Virus genome (UHGV): UHGV-1374314
From: a virus
Length of the DNA: 8,526 nt
Strand: one strand, 5' to 3'
Of the stretch, positions 1,959 to 7,762 are shown one piece after another. Each line of letters begins with the position of its first letter. The first letter of the stretch is position 1. Below the pieces are notes generated by a model. The model was not told where the DNA came from and searched no databases. It was given only the letters and a program-made list of their open reading frames with translations. Both the position numbers and the translations under genes were made by a program.

Positions 1959-3011
1959 GTGATCGATTGGCTTACCGGGATTTTCCCTTGCACACACAAA
2001 CCGCTTCCGGCGGGGAGTGTTGTCAGCGTTGATGCTGACGGTGCAATTGAGTGGGAAACCGTTAAGCGACTGACTGTTCGCGGCTCGCATGAAGCAACGA
2101 TGAAAGTACGATCGATAGGATCTAATGGCAAAGGTAAAGCGACACATTTGTACATTGATGGTAATCCGTCCAAGTTTTTGCAGGGGCATTCTGTTGTTGG
2201 GTCGGATGATATACAAGGGCTCATGTTGACGGTCTATGCCAGGATTTTATCCTTATTGAATATTCCTCATGATTTAGCGTCTTATAAAGCCGTTATGGCA
2301 GGTCAGTATAAAATTTCACGTGTTGACATTAATTACATGTATTCATTATCTACGCTGGAAAATGTCAGATCATGGCTTTATGCCGCCGAATTTAAAGCTA
2401 AAACACGCCATGGTCGCGCATGTGGGAAAGGCGGTACAGTTTATTTAGGTAAAAACTCCCGTCGATGGAGTCTGAAATTTTATTCAAAATATGATGAACA
2501 CGTTTCTGGTAAAAAAGGGCACCAGATAGCCGAAGAGTTTGTACGAGCCGGGTTACTGGACTGGACGAAAGATAAATTACGTATTGAATTAACATTAAGA
2601 ACAACTGAGCTTATTGATTTAAATTTAACGCTTGGCGCTAACTGGAATATGAAAACACCACGTCAATTATTCTCTGAATATGTAGGGAGAATAGAAATGA
2701 ATCAGAATACTATTTTAAGTGATGAAAAAATAACGAAACTGCCAAGAAAAATACAGTCAACTTATTTACTTTGGAAACAAGGGGCTAACATGAAAGAAAT
2801 GTTACCTCATAACACTTTTTATCGCCATAGAAGAGAATTGCTTTCGTTCGGTATCGATATTAATTTCTATTGTGATTCACCAGACTCTAATAACGTTGTT
2901 CCGCTAATAAGAACGCTGGAAGCCAAGCCAGCGGAAATCCCCTTATGGATTTATGAGAAAGGTTTTATTTTCGATTACAACCGTATTTCGCACGCCAGTA
3001 GCTGGCATTAA
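1959..3011 (+). CDS. gII: Replication initiation protein gpII (rolling-circle nickase/Rep); divergent homologue of Ff gpII
   Basis: Long ORF (frame opens at 1917). The likely start is GTG at 1959 with GAGG 9 nt upstream, giving MIDWLTGIF..., compare Ff gpII MIDMLVLRL.... Conserved blocks recalled from Ff gpII: K(F/V)LQGH(S/N)V(V/F)G and NNVVPL(I/V)R near the C-terminus. Confidence 0.8.
   Translation: MIDWLTGIFPCTHKPLPAGSVVSVDADGAIEWETVKRLTVRGSHEATMKVRSIGSNGKGKATHLYIDGNPSKFLQGHSVVGSDDIQGLMLTVYARILSLLNIPHDLASYKAVMAGQYKISRVDINYMYSLSTLENVRSWLYAAEFKAKTRHGRACGKGGTVYLGKNSRRWSLKFYSKYDEHVSGKKGHQIAEEFVRAGLLDWTKDKLRIELTLRTTELIDLNLTLGANWNMKTPRQLFSEYVGRIEMNQNTILSDEKITKLPRKIQSTYLLWKQGANMKEMLPHNTFYRHRRELLSFGIDINFYCDSPDSNNVVPLIRTLEAKPAEIPLWIYEKGFIFDYNRISHASSWH
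2697..3011 (+). CDS. gX: gpX, in-frame internal translation product of gII (replication regulator)
   Basis: Internal ATG at 2697, in frame with gII, preceded by GGGAG 7 nt upstream. It aligns with the position of the gX start in Ff (...DSMNIYDD versus ...RIEMNQNT). Confidence 0.5.
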   Translation: MNQNTILSDEKITKLPRKIQSTYLLWKQGANMKEMLPHNTFYRHRRELLSFGIDINFYCDSPDSNNVVPLIRTLEAKPAEIPLWIYEKGFIFDYNRISHASSWH

Positions 3012-3022
3012 AGGAAAGTAAT

Positions 3023-3340
3023 ATGTCTAATTATGGTCTTTTCGTTAAAGGTAAAATGTTGGGAGCCCGCCAACGTAATAAAGTTAATGGTCAGGGCTAT
3101 TATAATGAAATTGGTATTGGCCTTGAAATACCTGATGGTTTTGGTGGTACAAAGCAGGATCAAATTATTATTCGAGTTTCTCAGGCTCTCGTTAACGCAG
3201 GTCTAATGAACCAGGCGAATGCTTTCATTGGGAAATTAGTTCAAATTCCTGTCTATGTCCGTGCGTGGTCAATGGAGGGTAGGGAAGGTGTAACTTATAA
3301 TGTTTCTTCCGATGGTGGCATCGCAGAGATCAAAGGTTAA
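3023..3340 (+). CDS. gV: Putative ssDNA-binding protein gpV (assigned by synteny; sequence divergent from Ff/IKe gpV)
   Basis: 105-aa ORF immediately after gII with AAGGA 8 nt upstream of the ATG. Basic, G-rich, beta-type composition. No clear identity to Ff gpV by eye. Confidence 0.55.
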   Translation: MSNYGLFVKGKMLGARQRNKVNGQGYYNEIGIGLEIPDGFGGTKQDQIIIRVSQALVNAGLMNQANAFIGKLVQIPVYVRAWSMEGREGVTYNVSSDGGIAEIKG

Positions 3341-3342
3341 AT

Positions 3343-5394: not shown

Positions 5395-6489
5395 ATGGCG
5401 GTTTATGTAGTAACAGGCAAATTAGGCTCAGGCAAGACACTTGTTAGTGTTTCCAGAATACAGGAAAGACTTGCTAAGGGTTGTCCTGTTGCCACTAATC
5501 TTGATCTTAAATTGCATAATATGCCTATGGTTGGGCGTTATGCGAAAAAAACGCGCGTTATTCGCATTCCTGACAAGCCTTCATTAAATGATTTACTTGC
5601 TATTGGTATTGGGAATACATCTTACGATGAATCCCGTAATGGCCTCCTTGTACTTGATGAATGTGGTACTTGGTTTAATTCCCGCTCATGGGGTGATAAA
5701 GACAGACAACCTGTTATTGACTGGTTTTTACATGCCAGAAAATTAGGCTGGGATATTATATTTTTGATTCAGGATATTTCGATAATGGATAAGCAAGCTC
5801 GTCTGGCGCTTGCTGAGCATGTTGTTTATTGTCGCCGTTCAGATAAATTAAACATTCCTTTTGTTGGCTCCATTATGAATTTGGTTTCAGGGGCGAGATT
5901 TTCTTTACCAAAGGTACACTTTGGCATTGTCAAATATGGTGATAATGTTAATTCAATCACTGTTGATAAATGGATATATACAGGAAAATCTCTTTATTCT
6001 GCTTACAATACCAAACAAGCGTTCACAGATAATTATCCTCATGGCGCATTTTCGCTTTTGCCACCATTTATCACGCACGGTCAATTTTCTGTTCACAGAG
6101 GATTTAATTATTATATGCGCCTCACTAAAATTTATTTTCGCAAATCGAACCGTCTTATATTAATGCTTTCTTTTTTGGCGCTGGGGCTTGCGTTTGGTTT
6201 CTGGCTCCAGTCTGGAAAGAATGTTGATGAAATCTCAGCTATTAAATCTGCTTATGCTGAACAGGCGAGGGCGGTAACGCCTGATTCGTCCAGTGACTTA
6301 CCCCAACTTTCTATTAATTCTTTTTCACAACTTGGCTTTGACGTTTCCGTTACGTTTGTTGATGCAAAAGGTATGAAATATCAGTATTTTGATTTGATTA
6401 AAGATGGTTATTCCGTTGATATTAAAGATGCCTGTCGTGTTGTTATTAGAAAAGGCCGTTATTTACAGACTGTTACCTGTCAGGAGTAA
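5395..6489 (+). CDS. gI: Assembly ATPase gpI (Zot-like morphogenesis protein)
   Basis: MAVYVVTGKLGSGKTLVS... Walker A GKLGSGKT. Long blocks near-identical to Ff gpI (LLVLDECGTWFN, IDWFLHARKLGWDIIFL, DKQARxALAEHVVYCRR). Start abuts the gVI stop (TAAATG). Confidence 0.95.
   Translation: MAVYVVTGKLGSGKTLVSVSRIQERLAKGCPVATNLDLKLHNMPMVGRYAKKTRVIRIPDKPSLNDLLAIGIGNTSYDESRNGLLVLDECGTWFNSRSWGDKDRQPVIDWFLHARKLGWDIIFLIQDISIMDKQARLALAEHVVYCRRSDKLNIPFVGSIMNLVSGARFSLPKVHFGIVKYGDNVNSITVDKWIYTGKSLYSAYNTKQAFTDNYPHGAFSLLPPFITHGQFSVHRGFNYYMRLTKIYFRKSNRLILMLSFLALGLAFGFWLQSGKNVDEISAIKSAYAEQARAVTPDSSSDLPQLSINSFSQLGFDVSVTFVDAKGMKYQYFDLIKDGYSVDIKDACRVVIRKGRYLQTVTCQE
6115..6489 (+). CDS. gXI: gpXI, in-frame internal translation product of gI
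   Basis: In-frame ATG at 6115 giving MRLTKIYFRK..., aligned with the Ff pXI start MKLTKIYLKK, followed by a hydrophobic TM segment. Confidence 0.45.
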   Translation: MRLTKIYFRKSNRLILMLSFLALGLAFGFWLQSGKNVDEISAIKSAYAEQARAVTPDSSSDLPQLSINSFSQLGFDVSVTFVDAKGMKYQYFDLIKDGYSVDIKDACRVVIRKGRYLQTVTCQE

Positions 6490-6496
6490 TATTATT

Positions 6497-7762
6497 ATGC
6501 GCTCTGTTATTGTTGCTTTTTTATTTGCCTGTTCATTCTGCGTTTCTGCTGAAACTGTTAATTTAAATAATTCATCTATTCGCTCATTTGTTCAGTGGTA
6601 TTCTTCAAAAACTGGCAAGCCTGTTATTGTTAATCCTGATATTAAAGGAAACGTAACCGTATTTAATGCTGATGTTAATCCAACAAATATTGATGATTTC
6701 TTTAAGTCTGTTCTGAATGCTAACGGTTTTGTCATGCTTTCTGGCAATCCTGCGGTAGTCTCTTTGCCGTCTAAATTACCTTCACAGATGGTTTCGGATT
6801 CCGATGATTCTGATAACCAGTCTTATGATACTTTTCCTTCTGAGCCATCTTACCAGCCAGTACCTGTGGCGCTTACGGTCAGAAATTTTAAGCTGACAAA
6901 AGTTAGATCGTCCGATGTTCAGCAACTGATTAAAATTTATCTTGATTCTAATGGTGGTGGTAATGTCGTGGATTATCCAGGCAATAACTCGCTGATTGTT
7001 TCTGCGCCTGACGAGCTGCTGCCGGTTCTGTCCGATTTTATCAATTCTGTGGATGTTGCCCGCGATCAGGTTCTCATTCAGTCGCTGATGTTTGAAACCA
7101 GCTTGTCTGATGGCGTTGATTTATCGTTTGCGGCAGGTTCTGCATCCGGTCATAAGGTTGCGGGGGGCTTTAATACTTCTGCACTGGGTAGCGCTCTTTC
7201 TACGGCGGGCGGTTCTTTTGGTATTTTTGATGGTAACGTGTTGGCGCTGTCTCTGCGTGCTGTCCAGAGTAATTCACGCTCTAAGGTGATTTCAACGCCG
7301 CGTATTCTTACTCAGTCTGGTCAGACTGGTTACATTTCCGTAGGTAAGAATGTGCCGTTTATCACCGGAAAGGTAACGGGCGAATCTGCCGGGGTAAATA
7401 ATCCGTTTCAGACTATCGAGCGTCATGATGTTGGCGTTTCTCTCAAGGTAACGCCTGTTGTCATGGGTAACGGGCAACTAGTTCTGACTATCGACACTCG
7501 CGCTGATTCAATCAGCAATGATGATCAGGCATCCGATATTATTACTAATCAGCGCCAGATTCAGACGACAGTCCAGATTAAGGATGGTCAGACGTTGTTA
7601 TTGGGGGGGCTTATCGATTCATCGTTCAGCAATGCCGAGCGTTCAGTTCCAGTTATAAGTAAAATTCCTCTTATAGGCTGGATTTTCAGTAGCAAGGCAG
7701 ACAGCAATGAACAGCGTATTATGTATATTTTGCTTACAGCACATATCATTCGTCCACTTTGA
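6497..7762 (+). CDS. gIV: Secretin gpIV (outer-membrane export channel for virion extrusion)
   Basis: Start at ATG 6497 (MRSVIVAFLFACSFCVSA, signal peptide); the track ORF 6404.. is an upstream extension overlapping gI. Strong similarity to Ff pIV throughout, e.g. GGSFGIF, NVPFITG(K/R)VTGESA, NNPFQTIER, DGQTLLLGGL, SKIPLIG. Confidence 0.95.
   Translation: MRSVIVAFLFACSFCVSAETVNLNNSSIRSFVQWYSSKTGKPVIVNPDIKGNVTVFNADVNPTNIDDFFKSVLNANGFVMLSGNPAVVSLPSKLPSQMVSDSDDSDNQSYDTFPSEPSYQPVPVALTVRNFKLTKVRSSDVQQLIKIYLDSNGGGNVVDYPGNNSLIVSAPDELLPVLSDFINSVDVARDQVLIQSLMFETSLSDGVDLSFAAGSASGHKVAGGFNTSALGSALSTAGGSFGIFDGNVLALSLRAVQSNSRSKVISTPRILTQSGQTGYISVGKNVPFITGKVTGESAGVNNPFQTIERHDVGVSLKVTPVVMGNGQLVLTIDTRADSISNDDQASDIITNQRQIQTTVQIKDGQTLLLGGLIDSSFSNAERSVPVISKIPLIGWIFSSKADSNEQRIMYILLTAHIIRPL

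What the first reader, a model, noticed from the sequence alone, without database searches (positions are those of the whole stretch)
1959..7762. Mosaic inovirus: Ff/IKe-like morphogenesis module joined to a divergent replication module
gI, gIV, gVI and the gVIII/gIII C-termini share long near-identical blocks with Ff/IKe proteins as I recall them, whereas gpII retains only short conserved motifs and the presumptive gpV has no obvious identity to Ff gpV. This points to modular exchange of the replication cassette, and possibly of origin specificity, relative to classical Ff phages.
Basis: partly seen in the sequence, partly recalled or inferred. Interest (0 to 1): 0.45.

Follow-up and report, generated by a model that had tools for sequence, protein, structure and literature searches.

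The report
Known UPΦ-type mosaic filamentous prophage
The window is one complete copy of a filamentous prophage of the published UPΦ type that sits at the E. coli dif site. Its IKe/I2-2-like assembly genes are joined to the I2-2/YpfΦ-type replication genes, so the mosaic is real but has already been described.

Summary
Against IKe, the morphogenesis proteins are 53-72% identical. pII is only 20-23% identical to IKe and M13 (E about 1e-7), and pV has no detectable similarity to either.

The replication module is not an orphan. pII and pV are 57% and 40% identical to phage I2-2, and 87% and 94% identical to Yersinia pestis YpfΦ. YpfΦ morphogenesis proteins match the window at 29% or less.

The window starts at a dif-like attP and carries every gene from gII to gIV plus accessory ORFs. 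It is 99% identical to prophages in 47 complete E. coli genomes; the four inspected lie beside hipBA, one as a tandem array, one with an intact dif at its right end. It fits the 'UPΦ viruses' of Shapiro & Putonti (2020), who reported this gII/gV versus morphogenesis split. Stassen et al. (1992) published the I2-2 'module evolution' paper.

Small additions from this work:
- The swapped block runs from about 1538 to 3340 and includes a hairpin invariant in I2-2, YpfΦ and relatives, a candidate plus-strand origin.
- Two gII alleles each occur on both morphogenesis backbones.
- pV is predicted to be an SSB-like OB fold.

Verdict: real, correctly interpreted, already known, low interest.

The parts
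1..100 (+). attP. Two inverted dif-like XerC/XerD sites fold into a forked single-strand hairpin. Positions 4-18 match the first 15 bases of E. coli dif exactly (the 11-base XerC-binding arm plus four bases of the central region).
   Evidence: Exact 15-mer at 4-18 and an inverted copy at 83-97. DNA fold -33.1 kcal/mol, z -7.9. 99% identical to the YpfΦ site. In UM146 the prophage ends with an intact dif immediately after window position 8526.
100..471 (-). Accessory ORF of 123 aa, function unknown. It lies in the variable dif-adjacent region.
   Evidence: ORF. Matches phrog_22661, unknown function. Replaced by other ORFs in UM146.
517..984 (-). Accessory ORF of 155 aa, function unknown.
   Evidence: ORF. 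Matches phrog_6723.
1043..1090 (.). Short non-coding element shared with the If1 intergenic region and with many conjugative plasmids. It is a candidate single-strand initiation site or minus-strand origin.
   Evidence: 95.8-97.7% identical to If1 from 5058 to 5101-5105. 90-95% identical to 367 plasmid records. The function is inferred.
1096..1518 (-). Accessory ORF of 140 aa, predicted membrane protein. It is probably the 'h3' ORF of the UPΦ paper and is shared with CUS-type and Klebsiella prophages at 96-99%.
   Evidence: The equation with h3 is an inference from its position and prevalence (PMC7307601).
1561..1606 (+). Candidate plus-strand origin. Hairpin 1 (1561-1589) has stem ACGTGCAGT / ACTGCACGT and loop GTTGGTAAT. 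Hairpin 2 spans 1591-1606.
   Evidence: 33 columns are invariant across the window, the I2-2 intergenic region, YpfΦ, Klebsiella, Brenneria and L014; most lie in hairpin 1. Hairpin 2 shows paired changes, GTACC..GGTAC versus GTCTC..GAGAC. Fold z -4.6. TAATACTGCAC matches the Ff/IKe nick core TAATAGTGGAC at 9 of 11 positions. The function is inferred.
1607..1789 (-). orf60, a small divergently transcribed ORF in the position of the repressor (rstR or YPO2273 position).
   Evidence: 98% identical to the Brenneria homologue. Unannotated homologues exist in the If1 and I2-2 intergenic regions. Matches phrog_2503. The regulatory role is inferred from position only.
1959..3011 (+). gII, the rolling-circle replication initiator of I2-2/YpfΦ type.
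   Evidence: Pfam PF05144 (3.6e-71) plus PF05155 (2.3e-29). 57% identical to I2-2 and 87% to YpfΦ pII; 20-23% to IKe and 22-26% to M13.
2697..3011 (+). gX, an in-frame internal start within gII (104 aa).
   Evidence: The ATG is at the position homologous to the annotated I2-2 gX start, with the same sequence context and GGGAGAA upstream. Inferred.
3023..3340 (+). gV, an ssDNA-binding protein of the PF17426 family. It is not the Ff type.
3343..3524 (+). gVII (3343-3429) and gIX (3429-3524), the minor coat proteins of the leading tip.
   Evidence: 68% and 55% identical to IKe pVII and pIX. The YpfΦ-similar nucleotide block ends at 3347.
3544..3786 (+). gVIII, the major coat protein.
   Evidence: 61% identical to IKe and 64% to PEar1.
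3833..5053 (+). gIII, the attachment protein with a [10 protein letters not shown] linker.
   Evidence: Pfam G3P_pilus-bind 8.3e-25. 55% identical to IKe. The linker repeat number differs between copies (L001 gene III is 66 nt longer), as reported for UPΦ (PMC7307601).
5053..5394 (+). gVI, a minor coat protein.
   Evidence: 53% identical to IKe and 58% to PEar1.
5395..6489 (+). gI, the assembly ATPase (Zot-like), with a probable gXI internal start at Met241 (nt 6115).
   Evidence: 65-66% identical to I2-2 and IKe, 57% to M13. Met241 is followed by a basic and hydrophobic segment. gXI is inferred.
6497..7762 (+). gIV, the outer-membrane secretin.
   Evidence: 72-73% identical to IKe and I2-2, 51% to M13.
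7758..7806 (+). Long near-perfect hairpin overlapping the gIV stop codon. It is a candidate packaging (morphogenetic) signal.
   Evidence: Fold -20 kcal/mol, z -6.6. It occupies the same position as the annotated morphogenetic signals of I2-2 (2260-2330) and IKe (6141-6196). It shares 21-22 nt with them.
7832..8491 (+). Two accessory ORFs (7832-8140, 102 aa; 8258-8491, 77 aa) in what is intergenic DNA in I2-2, IKe and M13. They are probably the 'h1/h2' ORFs of the UPΦ paper.
   Evidence: They match phrog_4115 and phrog_5435, unknown function. The paper describes two novel genes at this place (PMC7307601).

Best explanation
The window is one full unit, from attP to the base before attR, of a dif-integrating E. 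coli filamentous prophage of the UPΦ type. It is built from two kinds of parts.

The morphogenesis block (gVII to gIV, about 3343-7806 including the packaging hairpin) is of the Lineavirus kind, as in IKe, I2-2 and PEar.

The replication block (about 1538-3340) is of the I2-2/YpfΦ kind. It comprises the nick-site hairpin, the small divergent ORF orf60, gII with internal gX, and gV.

Inferred mode of action, from homology:
1. pII nicks the plus strand at the conserved hairpin and drives rolling-circle replication.
2. pX and the SSB-like pV switch replication to single-strand accumulation.
3. The pV-coated strand is handed to pI/pXI and pIV through the hairpin that follows gIV.
4. The single-stranded attP hairpin is recombined by host XerCD into dif, which produces tandem arrays.

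The mosaic most likely arose, more than once, by recombination between different inoviruses that were co-resident or co-integrated at dif. The origin, regulator, gII and gV travelled together as one cassette.
For: Identity of the element:
- The window is 99.0-99.4% identical over 88-100% of its length to chromosomal prophages in 47 complete E. coli genomes.
- It forms a tandem array in HUM3355.
- It lies between hipBA and the fim region, with an intact dif at the right end in UM146.
- It has a dif half-site at its start, two novel plus-strand ORFs after gIV, reverse ORFs next to dif and a GGGES linker in g3p. All of these are described for UPΦ901.

Mosaic structure:
- Against Brenneria the similar block is 1538-3336 at 89%. 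Against YpfΦ it is 1538-1617 plus 1960-3347.
- Two gII alleles each occur on both backbones.

Origin:
- The hairpin is invariant in I2-2, YpfΦ and the other relatives and folds well.
- The Ff/IKe origin core is absent. The nick core matches at 9 of 11 positions.

pV: Pfam PF17426 and an OB-fold model that matches SSB and PriB domains.

Literature:
- UPΦ901 genes II and V are over 85% identical to YpfΦ and under 15% similar to IKe and M13, and the authors attribute this to recombination (PMC7307601).
- Disruption of the YpfΦ gII homologue YPO2274 abolishes particle production, and YpfΦ has inverted XerC/XerD sites like CTXΦ (PMC4266046).
Against: - I could not align the window to the UPΦ901 sequence itself, which is only on figshare, so membership rests on features and on the identity values the paper reports.
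- The direction and number of exchange events are not resolved. Relative to I2-2 the genome is colinear, so the replacement relative to IKe may have happened in the IKe lineage instead.
- The origin, the packaging signal, gX, gXI and the regulator are inferred from conservation and position. None has been shown experimentally.
- The published attempts to infect new hosts with UPΦ901 failed (PMC7307601).
Confidence: 0.9

Rival explanations
1. There was no exchange in this lineage. The phage and I2-2 descend vertically from an ancestor that already combined this replication module with Lineavirus-type morphogenesis. It is IKe that swapped in an Ff-like replication module.
For: All nine core proteins are homologous to I2-2 at 39-73%. 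The order ori hairpin, orf60-like ORF, gII, gV is conserved in I2-2. IKe pII and pV are closer to M13 (60% and 45%) than most IKe morphogenesis proteins are (27-53%), while IKe and I2-2 are 71-93% identical in morphogenesis but only 22% and 10% in pII and pV.
Against: This explains the contrast with IKe, but not why pII and pV are 87% and 94% identical to YpfΦ with unrelated morphogenesis genes. It also does not explain why two gII alleles each occur on both backbones. At least some exchanges involve the UPΦ/YpfΦ lineages themselves. The two scenarios are not mutually exclusive.
Confidence: 0.35
2. The pattern reflects only faster evolution of gII and gV, with no recombination at all.
For: pII of all these phages falls in the same Pfam families, PF05144 and PF05155. 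pV is generally one of the faster-evolving genes (IKe versus M13, 45%).
Against: pV is in a different Pfam family from Ff/IKe pV and gives no BLASTP hit. Near-identical gII/gV occur in phages whose morphogenesis genes are unrelated. Nucleotide similarity ends abruptly at the gV/gVII junction.
Confidence: 0.02
3. The mosaic is an assembly or binning chimera of two different prophages.
For: Tandem heterogeneous arrays at dif can confuse short-read assemblers (PMC7307601, section 4.2). Near-identical copies turn up in implausible MAG bins.
Against: The same arrangement is present at 99% identity in 47 complete E. coli genomes, including tandem copies with identical junctions.
Confidence: 0.01

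Closest known systems
UPΦ viruses (UPΦ901; Shapiro & Putonti 2020, Virus Evol 6:veaa030, PMC7307601)
   Same: It integrates at the E. coli dif site, often as tandem repeats. A dif copy lies at the genome start. The core genes are Lineavirus-like and in Ff order. gII and gV are over 85% identical to YpfΦ and unlike those of IKe and M13. Two novel ORFs follow gIV, and reverse ORFs lie next to dif. The g3p linker has a variable number of GGGES repeats.
   Different: No difference was detected. The UPΦ901 sequence itself was not available for alignment. The dif-adjacent accessory ORFs (100-984) vary between copies (for example UM146), as the paper also reports.
Phage I2-2 (Lineavirus; Stassen et al. 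1992, J Mol Evol 34:141)
   Same: All core genes are homologous and colinear (39-73% amino-acid identity). It has the same pII subtype, the same pV family (PF17426) and the same conserved hairpin in the intergenic region. A packaging hairpin follows gIV.
   Different: I2-2 is 6.7 kb, does not integrate, and has no dif-like attP. It lacks the accessory ORFs and has only a 44-aa remnant-like orf60 homologue. pII and pV are much closer to YpfΦ (87% and 94%) than to I2-2 (57% and 40%).
YpfΦ of Yersinia pestis and CUS-1 of E. coli O18:K1:H7 (Gonzalez 2002; Derbise 2007; review PMC4266046)
   Same: The attP is 99% identical. pII is 87% and pV 94% identical. It has the same ori-like hairpin, the same dif/XerCD tandem integration and the same overall layout, with accessory genes at both ends.
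   Different: The morphogenesis and secretion block is entirely different (pIV 27% over part of its length, pI 29% with E 0.12, the rest undetectable). YpfΦ has a 148-aa HTH repressor where the window has orf60.
IKe, PEar and the Ff phages (M13/f1/fd)
   Same: Gene order is the same. The morphogenesis proteins are 53-72% identical to IKe and PEar and 26-57% to M13. pII belongs to the same Pfam families.
   Different: pII is only 20-26% identical. pV belongs to another family (PF02303). The Ff-type origin core GTCCAC..TTTAATAGTGGAC is absent from the window. These phages do not integrate.

Membership tests
UPΦ viruses (as defined in PMC7307601) | Prophage integrated at the chromosomal dif site, typically in tandem, with a dif copy at the genome start | tested here: met
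   The dif 15-mer lies at 4-18. HUM3355 carries a tandem array. An intact dif directly follows the unit in UM146.
UPΦ viruses (as defined in PMC7307601) | Complete set of Lineavirus-like core genes in Ff order, about 70% amino-acid identity to IKe and I2-2 in the covered genes | tested here: met
   gII through gIV are all present. Morphogenesis proteins are 52-73% identical to I2-2 and IKe.
UPΦ viruses (as defined in PMC7307601) | Genes II and V over 85% identical to YpfΦ; all other genes dissimilar to YpfΦ | tested here: met
   pII is 86.6% and pV 94.3% identical. All other proteins are 29% or less, or undetectable.
UPΦ viruses (as defined in PMC7307601) | Two novel ORFs in the region that is intergenic in I2-2, IKe and M13, and reverse ORFs next to dif | tested here: met
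   ORFs lie at 7832-8140 and 8258-8491. Reverse ORFs lie at 100-471, 517-984 and 1096-1518. All match PHROGs of unknown function.
UPΦ viruses (as defined in PMC7307601) | High nucleotide identity to the UPΦ901 reference sequence | not testable with these tools
   The reference is deposited on figshare only. It is absent from the phage collection searched.
I2-2/YpfΦ-type replication module | pII of the I2-2 subtype, pV of Pfam PF17426, and the conserved hairpin ACGTGCAGTGT..GTAATACTGCA upstream of gII | tested here: met
   pII matches I2-2 at 57%, E 1e-152. PF17426 scores 3.2e-51. The hairpin is invariant in six sequences and is found only in I2-2 and the window among the reference phages.
Ff/IKe-type replication module | pV of Pfam PF02303, and the origin nick core TTTAATAGTGGACTC within a GTCCAC/GTGGAC hairpin | tested here: not met
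   pV gives no PF02303 hit and no BLASTP hit. The origin core is present in M13 and IKe but absent from the window.
YpfΦ / CUS-1 prophages | YpfΦ-type morphogenesis and secretion genes (YPO2276-YPO2280 homologues) | tested here: not met
   There are no significant matches except partial pIV at 27%. True CUS-type prophages (E. coli A4, L008) are 97% identical to YpfΦ across this block.
CTXΦ-type Xer-dependent integrating elements | Two inverted dif-like sites that fold in the single strand into a forked XerCD substrate | tested here: met
   The 1-100 hairpin has z -7.9 and pairs the two dif-like sites. Actual XerCD recombination on the single strand is not testable here.

The most novel reading that the evidence does not exclude
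The 1.8-kb block at about 1538-3340 (nick-site hairpin, small regulator, gII/gX, gV) is a self-contained replicon cassette. It has been swapped repeatedly between two unrelated morphogenesis backbones of dif-integrating enterobacterial inoviruses: two gII alleles and two backbones occur in all four combinations. The regulator gene is swapped independently, like an immunity allele. The non-integrating phage I2-2 would then be a stripped-down descendant of such an integrating mosaic. The hairpin junction TAATA/CTGCAC would be the pII nick site, homologous to that of Ff.
Probability: 0.5. Interest if true: 0.3.

Novelty: already known. Interest (0 to 1): 0.15.

Why it matters
The result adds little that is new. 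It confirms that modular exchange of the replication cassette, together with its origin, is routine among filamentous phages that share the dif integration site. That exchange is the route by which hybrid phages such as those of the CTXΦ family arise.

Practically, the result shows that this window needs no new category. It can be annotated as a UPΦ-type prophage with an I2-2/YpfΦ-type replicon.

Three minor additions are useful for annotation and for designing origin-specificity experiments: the candidate origin hairpin shared by I2-2, YpfΦ and UPΦ; the two gII alleles found on both backbones; and the SSB-like fold of pV.

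Tried and rejected
- First guess, that the window is CUS-1/YpfΦ itself because it matches UM146 and F11. Rejected: the morphogenesis proteins are 29% or less identical to YpfΦ, and a genuine CUS-type prophage (E. coli A4) differs throughout that block.
- Search for a full 28-bp dif with up to 3 mismatches. None was found. Only the first 15 bases of dif (the XerC arm plus four central bases) are exact, and the XerD-like arm follows an 11-nt spacer.
- Megablast against the phage collection gave only short hits. The blastn and tblastn modes were needed.
- The protein search for pV returned only close relatives of 55% identity or more, so the alignment used for folding was shallow. 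The model was nevertheless confident.
- Promoter and terminator consensus scans around 1500-2000 and 3300-3900 were no better than shuffled sequence.
- The plasmid context of the 1043-1090 element was inconclusive: near the IncFII repA region in one plasmid and near an STM4504-family gene in another.
- An attempt to find the Stassen 1992 paper in the library gave only its citation.

Full report
**What is in the window**

Six-frame ORF listing and translation give a complete Ff-order gene set on the plus strand:
- gII 1959-3011
- gV 3023-3340
- gVII 3343-3429
- gIX 3429-3524
- gVIII 3544-3786
- gIII 3833-5053
- gVI 5053-5394
- gI 5395-6489
- gIV 6497-7762

Two further plus-strand ORFs follow (7832-8140 and 8258-8491). 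Four minus-strand ORFs precede gII (100-471, 517-984, 1096-1518 and 1607-1789). The finding's coordinates, 1959-7762, run exactly from the gII start to the gIV stop.

**Checking the observation**

I fetched the genomes of I2-2, IKe, M13, If1 and PEar1 and aligned each protein.

| Protein | IKe (%) | M13 (%) | I2-2 (%) |
|---|---|---|---|
| pII | 23 | 26 | 57 |
| pV | none | none | 39 |
| pVII | 68 | 32 | 68 |
| pIX | 55 | 26 | 52 |
| pVIII | 61 | 45 | 54 |
| pIII | 55 | 28 | 56 |
| pVI | 53 | 36 | 54 |
| pI | 66 | 57 | 65 |
| pIV | 72 | 51 | 73 |

By BLASTP, pII matches IKe at 20% over 382 aa (E 4e-7) and M13 at 22% (E 5e-7). pV has no BLASTP hit to either phage. The I2-2 matches are strong: pII E 1e-152 and pV E 1e-30.

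Exact runs of 16-29 residues occur in pI and pIV. The longest run is 6 residues in pII and 1 in pV against IKe and M13.

Searching the phage collection with the proteins confirms this. I2-2 is the only close phage relative of pII. pV finds I2-2 plus a few metagenomic and Pseudomonas inoviruses.

Pfam places pII of all these phages in PF05144 plus PF05155. pV of the window and of I2-2 falls in PF17426 ('Putative_G5P'), whereas pV of IKe and M13 falls in PF02303.

**What the element is**

The window is 99.0-99.4% identical, over 88-100% of its length, to chromosomal DNA of 47 complete E. coli genomes, including F11 and UM146.
- In strain HUM3355 it forms a head-to-tail array.
- In UM146 a single copy lies between hipBA and a fimbrial operon.
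- The window begins ATTGGTGCGCATAATGTA. These bases include the first 15 bases of E. coli dif, an exact match that covers the 11-base XerC arm and four bases of the central region.
- In UM146 the base after window position 8526 starts a perfect 28-bp dif.

The window is therefore exactly one prophage unit, from attL to just before attR.

Positions 1-100 contain a second, inverted dif-like site. They fold as single-stranded DNA into a forked hairpin (-33 kcal/mol, z -7.9). This stretch is 99% identical to the corresponding YpfΦ site, for which a CTXΦ-like XerCD substrate has been proposed (PMC4266046).

**Relation to the published UPΦ phages**

Shapiro & Putonti (2020; PMC7307601) described UPΦ901 and 229 'UPΦ viruses' with the following features:
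- They are dif-integrated, often tandem prophages of E. coli and other Enterobacterales, with a dif copy at the genome start.
- Their core genes are closest to IKe and I2-2.
- Two novel ORFs occupy the region that is intergenic in I2-2, IKe and M13.
- Three reverse ORFs lie next to dif.
- The g3p protein has a variable number of GGGES repeats.
[quoted passage not shown] The authors read this as a history of recombination.

I reproduced the key numbers with a YpfΦ copy from Y. pestis NCTC5923 (L012). pII is 86.6% identical and pV 94.3%. pIV is 27% over 284 residues, pI is 29% over 106 residues (E 0.12), and nothing else is detectable. Every testable defining feature of the UPΦ group is met. Only a direct alignment to UPΦ901, which is deposited on figshare alone, could not be done.

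My first guess, that the window is CUS-1/YpfΦ itself, is rejected. A real CUS-type prophage (E. coli A4, L008) is 97% identical to YpfΦ across the whole core but shares only four segments with the window: the attP, one accessory gene, gII-gV and a 106-nt segment at 8139-8244.

**Evidence for exchange, and its limits**

Nucleotide similarity to YpfΦ runs from 1960 to 3347 (80%) and stops at the gV/gVII junction. A further short block lies at 1538-1617. Similarity to a YpfΦ-like prophage of Brenneria alni is continuous from 1538 to 3336 (89%).

A tblastn matrix shows the same gII/gV module, at 86-95% identity, joined to two backbones:
- Lineavirus-like morphogenesis genes, in the window and in a divergent UPΦ from E. 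coli APEC E19057.
- YpfΦ-type morphogenesis genes, in Y. pestis, E. coli A4, Klebsiella spallanzanii, Brenneria alni and Phytobacter.

There are also two gII alleles:
- Allele A occurs in the window and in Brenneria, which are 95% identical to each other.
- Allele B occurs in the APEC UPΦ, YpfΦ, the CUS-type prophage and Klebsiella, which are 97-100% identical to each other.
- The two alleles are 86-87% identical to each other.

Each allele occurs on both backbones, and this cannot be explained without more than one recombination event.

The gene between the hairpin and gII also varies independently. It is orf60 in the window and Brenneria (98% identical) and a 148-aa HTH protein in YpfΦ, the CUS-type prophage and the APEC UPΦ.

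The direction of the older event is not resolved. Relative to I2-2 the genome is colinear, and IKe pII and pV are unusually close to M13 (60% and 45%). IKe may therefore be the lineage that took an Ff-like replicon. The mechanism of exchange, recombination between phages co-integrated at dif, is an inference that the UPΦ and YpfΦ literature also makes (PMC4266046).

**Origin specificity**

A non-coding block at 1561-1606 holds most of the columns that are invariant across the window, the I2-2 intergenic region (2666-2699), YpfΦ, Klebsiella, Brenneria and one further locus.
- Hairpin 1 has stem ACGTGCAGT / ACTGCACGT and loop GTTGGTAAT.
- Hairpin 2 changes on both sides of its stem between sequences (GTACC..GGTAC versus GTCTC..GAGAC).
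- The two hairpins fold with z -4.6.

The Ff/IKe origin core (GTCCAC...TTTAATAGTGGAC) is present in M13 and IKe, at the annotated viral-strand origin, but not in the window, I2-2 or If1. The I2-2-type hairpin occurs only in I2-2 and the window among the reference phages. The 3' side of the loop and the adjoining stem, TAATACTGCAC, matches the Ff nick core TAATAGTGGAC at 9 of 11 positions.

I therefore propose that this hairpin is the plus-strand origin of the I2-2/YpfΦ pII family and that it travels with gII. This is inferred, not shown.

An in-frame ATG at 2697 sits at the position of the annotated I2-2 gX start, with the same sequence context. A long hairpin at 7758-7806 (z -6.6) occupies the place of the annotated morphogenetic signals of I2-2 and IKe.

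**pV**

The assignment as the single-strand-binding protein is therefore supported by structure. pV is a different family from Ff gene V protein, not a diverged copy recognisable by sequence.

**Verdict**

It is already known. The window is a UPΦ-type prophage, and its gII/gV-versus-morphogenesis split was published in 2020. Module evolution is the titled theme of the 1992 I2-2 genome paper by Stassen et al. (citation confirmed; content from my own knowledge).

The added details are incremental: the extent of the cassette, the shared origin-like hairpin, the two alleles on two backbones, and the SSB-like pV. Interest is low.

Noticed in passing
window 1-100: Two inverted dif-like sites flank a GC-rich stem-loop and fold into a forked single-strand hairpin (z -7.9), 99% identical to the YpfΦ site. 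The plus-strand site has an 11-nt spacer between the XerC-like and XerD-like arms, where dif has 6 nt. This fits a CTXΦ-type single-strand integration substrate.
   Followed up: partly
window 1043-1090: A 44-48-nt non-coding element is 96-98% identical to the If1 'major intergenic region' (from 5058 to 5101-5105) and 90-95% identical to 367 mostly conjugative IncF-type plasmids. In one plasmid it lies near the IncFII repA region, in another next to an STM4504-family gene. If1 is otherwise only about 50% identical at protein level, so this looks like a separately exchanged or strongly constrained element. It may be a single-strand initiation site or minus-strand origin.
   Followed up: partly
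window 1607-1789 (-); L005 (If1) 5143-5301 (-); L002 (I2-2) 2799-2903 (-); L003 (IKe) 6619-6771 (-): The 60-aa ORF between the origin-like hairpin and gII has unannotated homologues on the minus strand of the 'intergenic regions' of If1 (58%, E 4e-19), I2-2 (43%, E 2e-5, only a 44-aa ORF) and, weakly, IKe (25%, E 0.005). The classical non-integrating phages may carry a small overlooked or decaying regulator gene.
   Followed up: partly
L009 (E. coli APEC E19057) and L011 (Brenneria alni) versus window 1959-3340: Two gII alleles, 86-87% identical to each other, are each found on both the Lineavirus-like and the YpfΦ-type morphogenesis backbone. The window's allele is 95% identical to that of a Brenneria YpfΦ-like prophage.
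   Followed up: yes
window 100-984 versus L007 (UM146) 4101-4855: The dif-adjacent accessory ORFs differ between otherwise 99% identical prophage copies. UM146 carries a 159-aa ORF and an ECs_2282-family zinc-binding protein. Other strains list STM4504/CBY_0614, PD-(D/E)XK nuclease or CxxCx(11)CxxC proteins, and some carry ISEcp1 or IS1 insertions. This is a variable cargo slot of unknown function.
   Followed up: no
L010 and L014: A 99% identical copy of this prophage lies on a contig binned as 'Candidatus Nanosynbacter', and a related gII/gV locus lies in an 'Aerococcus' MAG. These are almost certainly mis-binned enterobacterial contigs.
   Followed up: no
L005 (If1) 6040-7086: If1 ORF348, annotated as a hypothetical protein, matches the OrfB_IS605 and Cas12f1-like TNB domains. 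A TnpB-type gene therefore sits inside a filamentous phage genome.
   Followed up: no
window 4446-4530 (gIII linker): The [10 protein letters not shown] repeat tract is 66 nt shorter in the window than in the HUM3355 copies. This is the only sizeable indel between them and matches the repeat-number variation reported for UPΦ g3p.
   Followed up: partly
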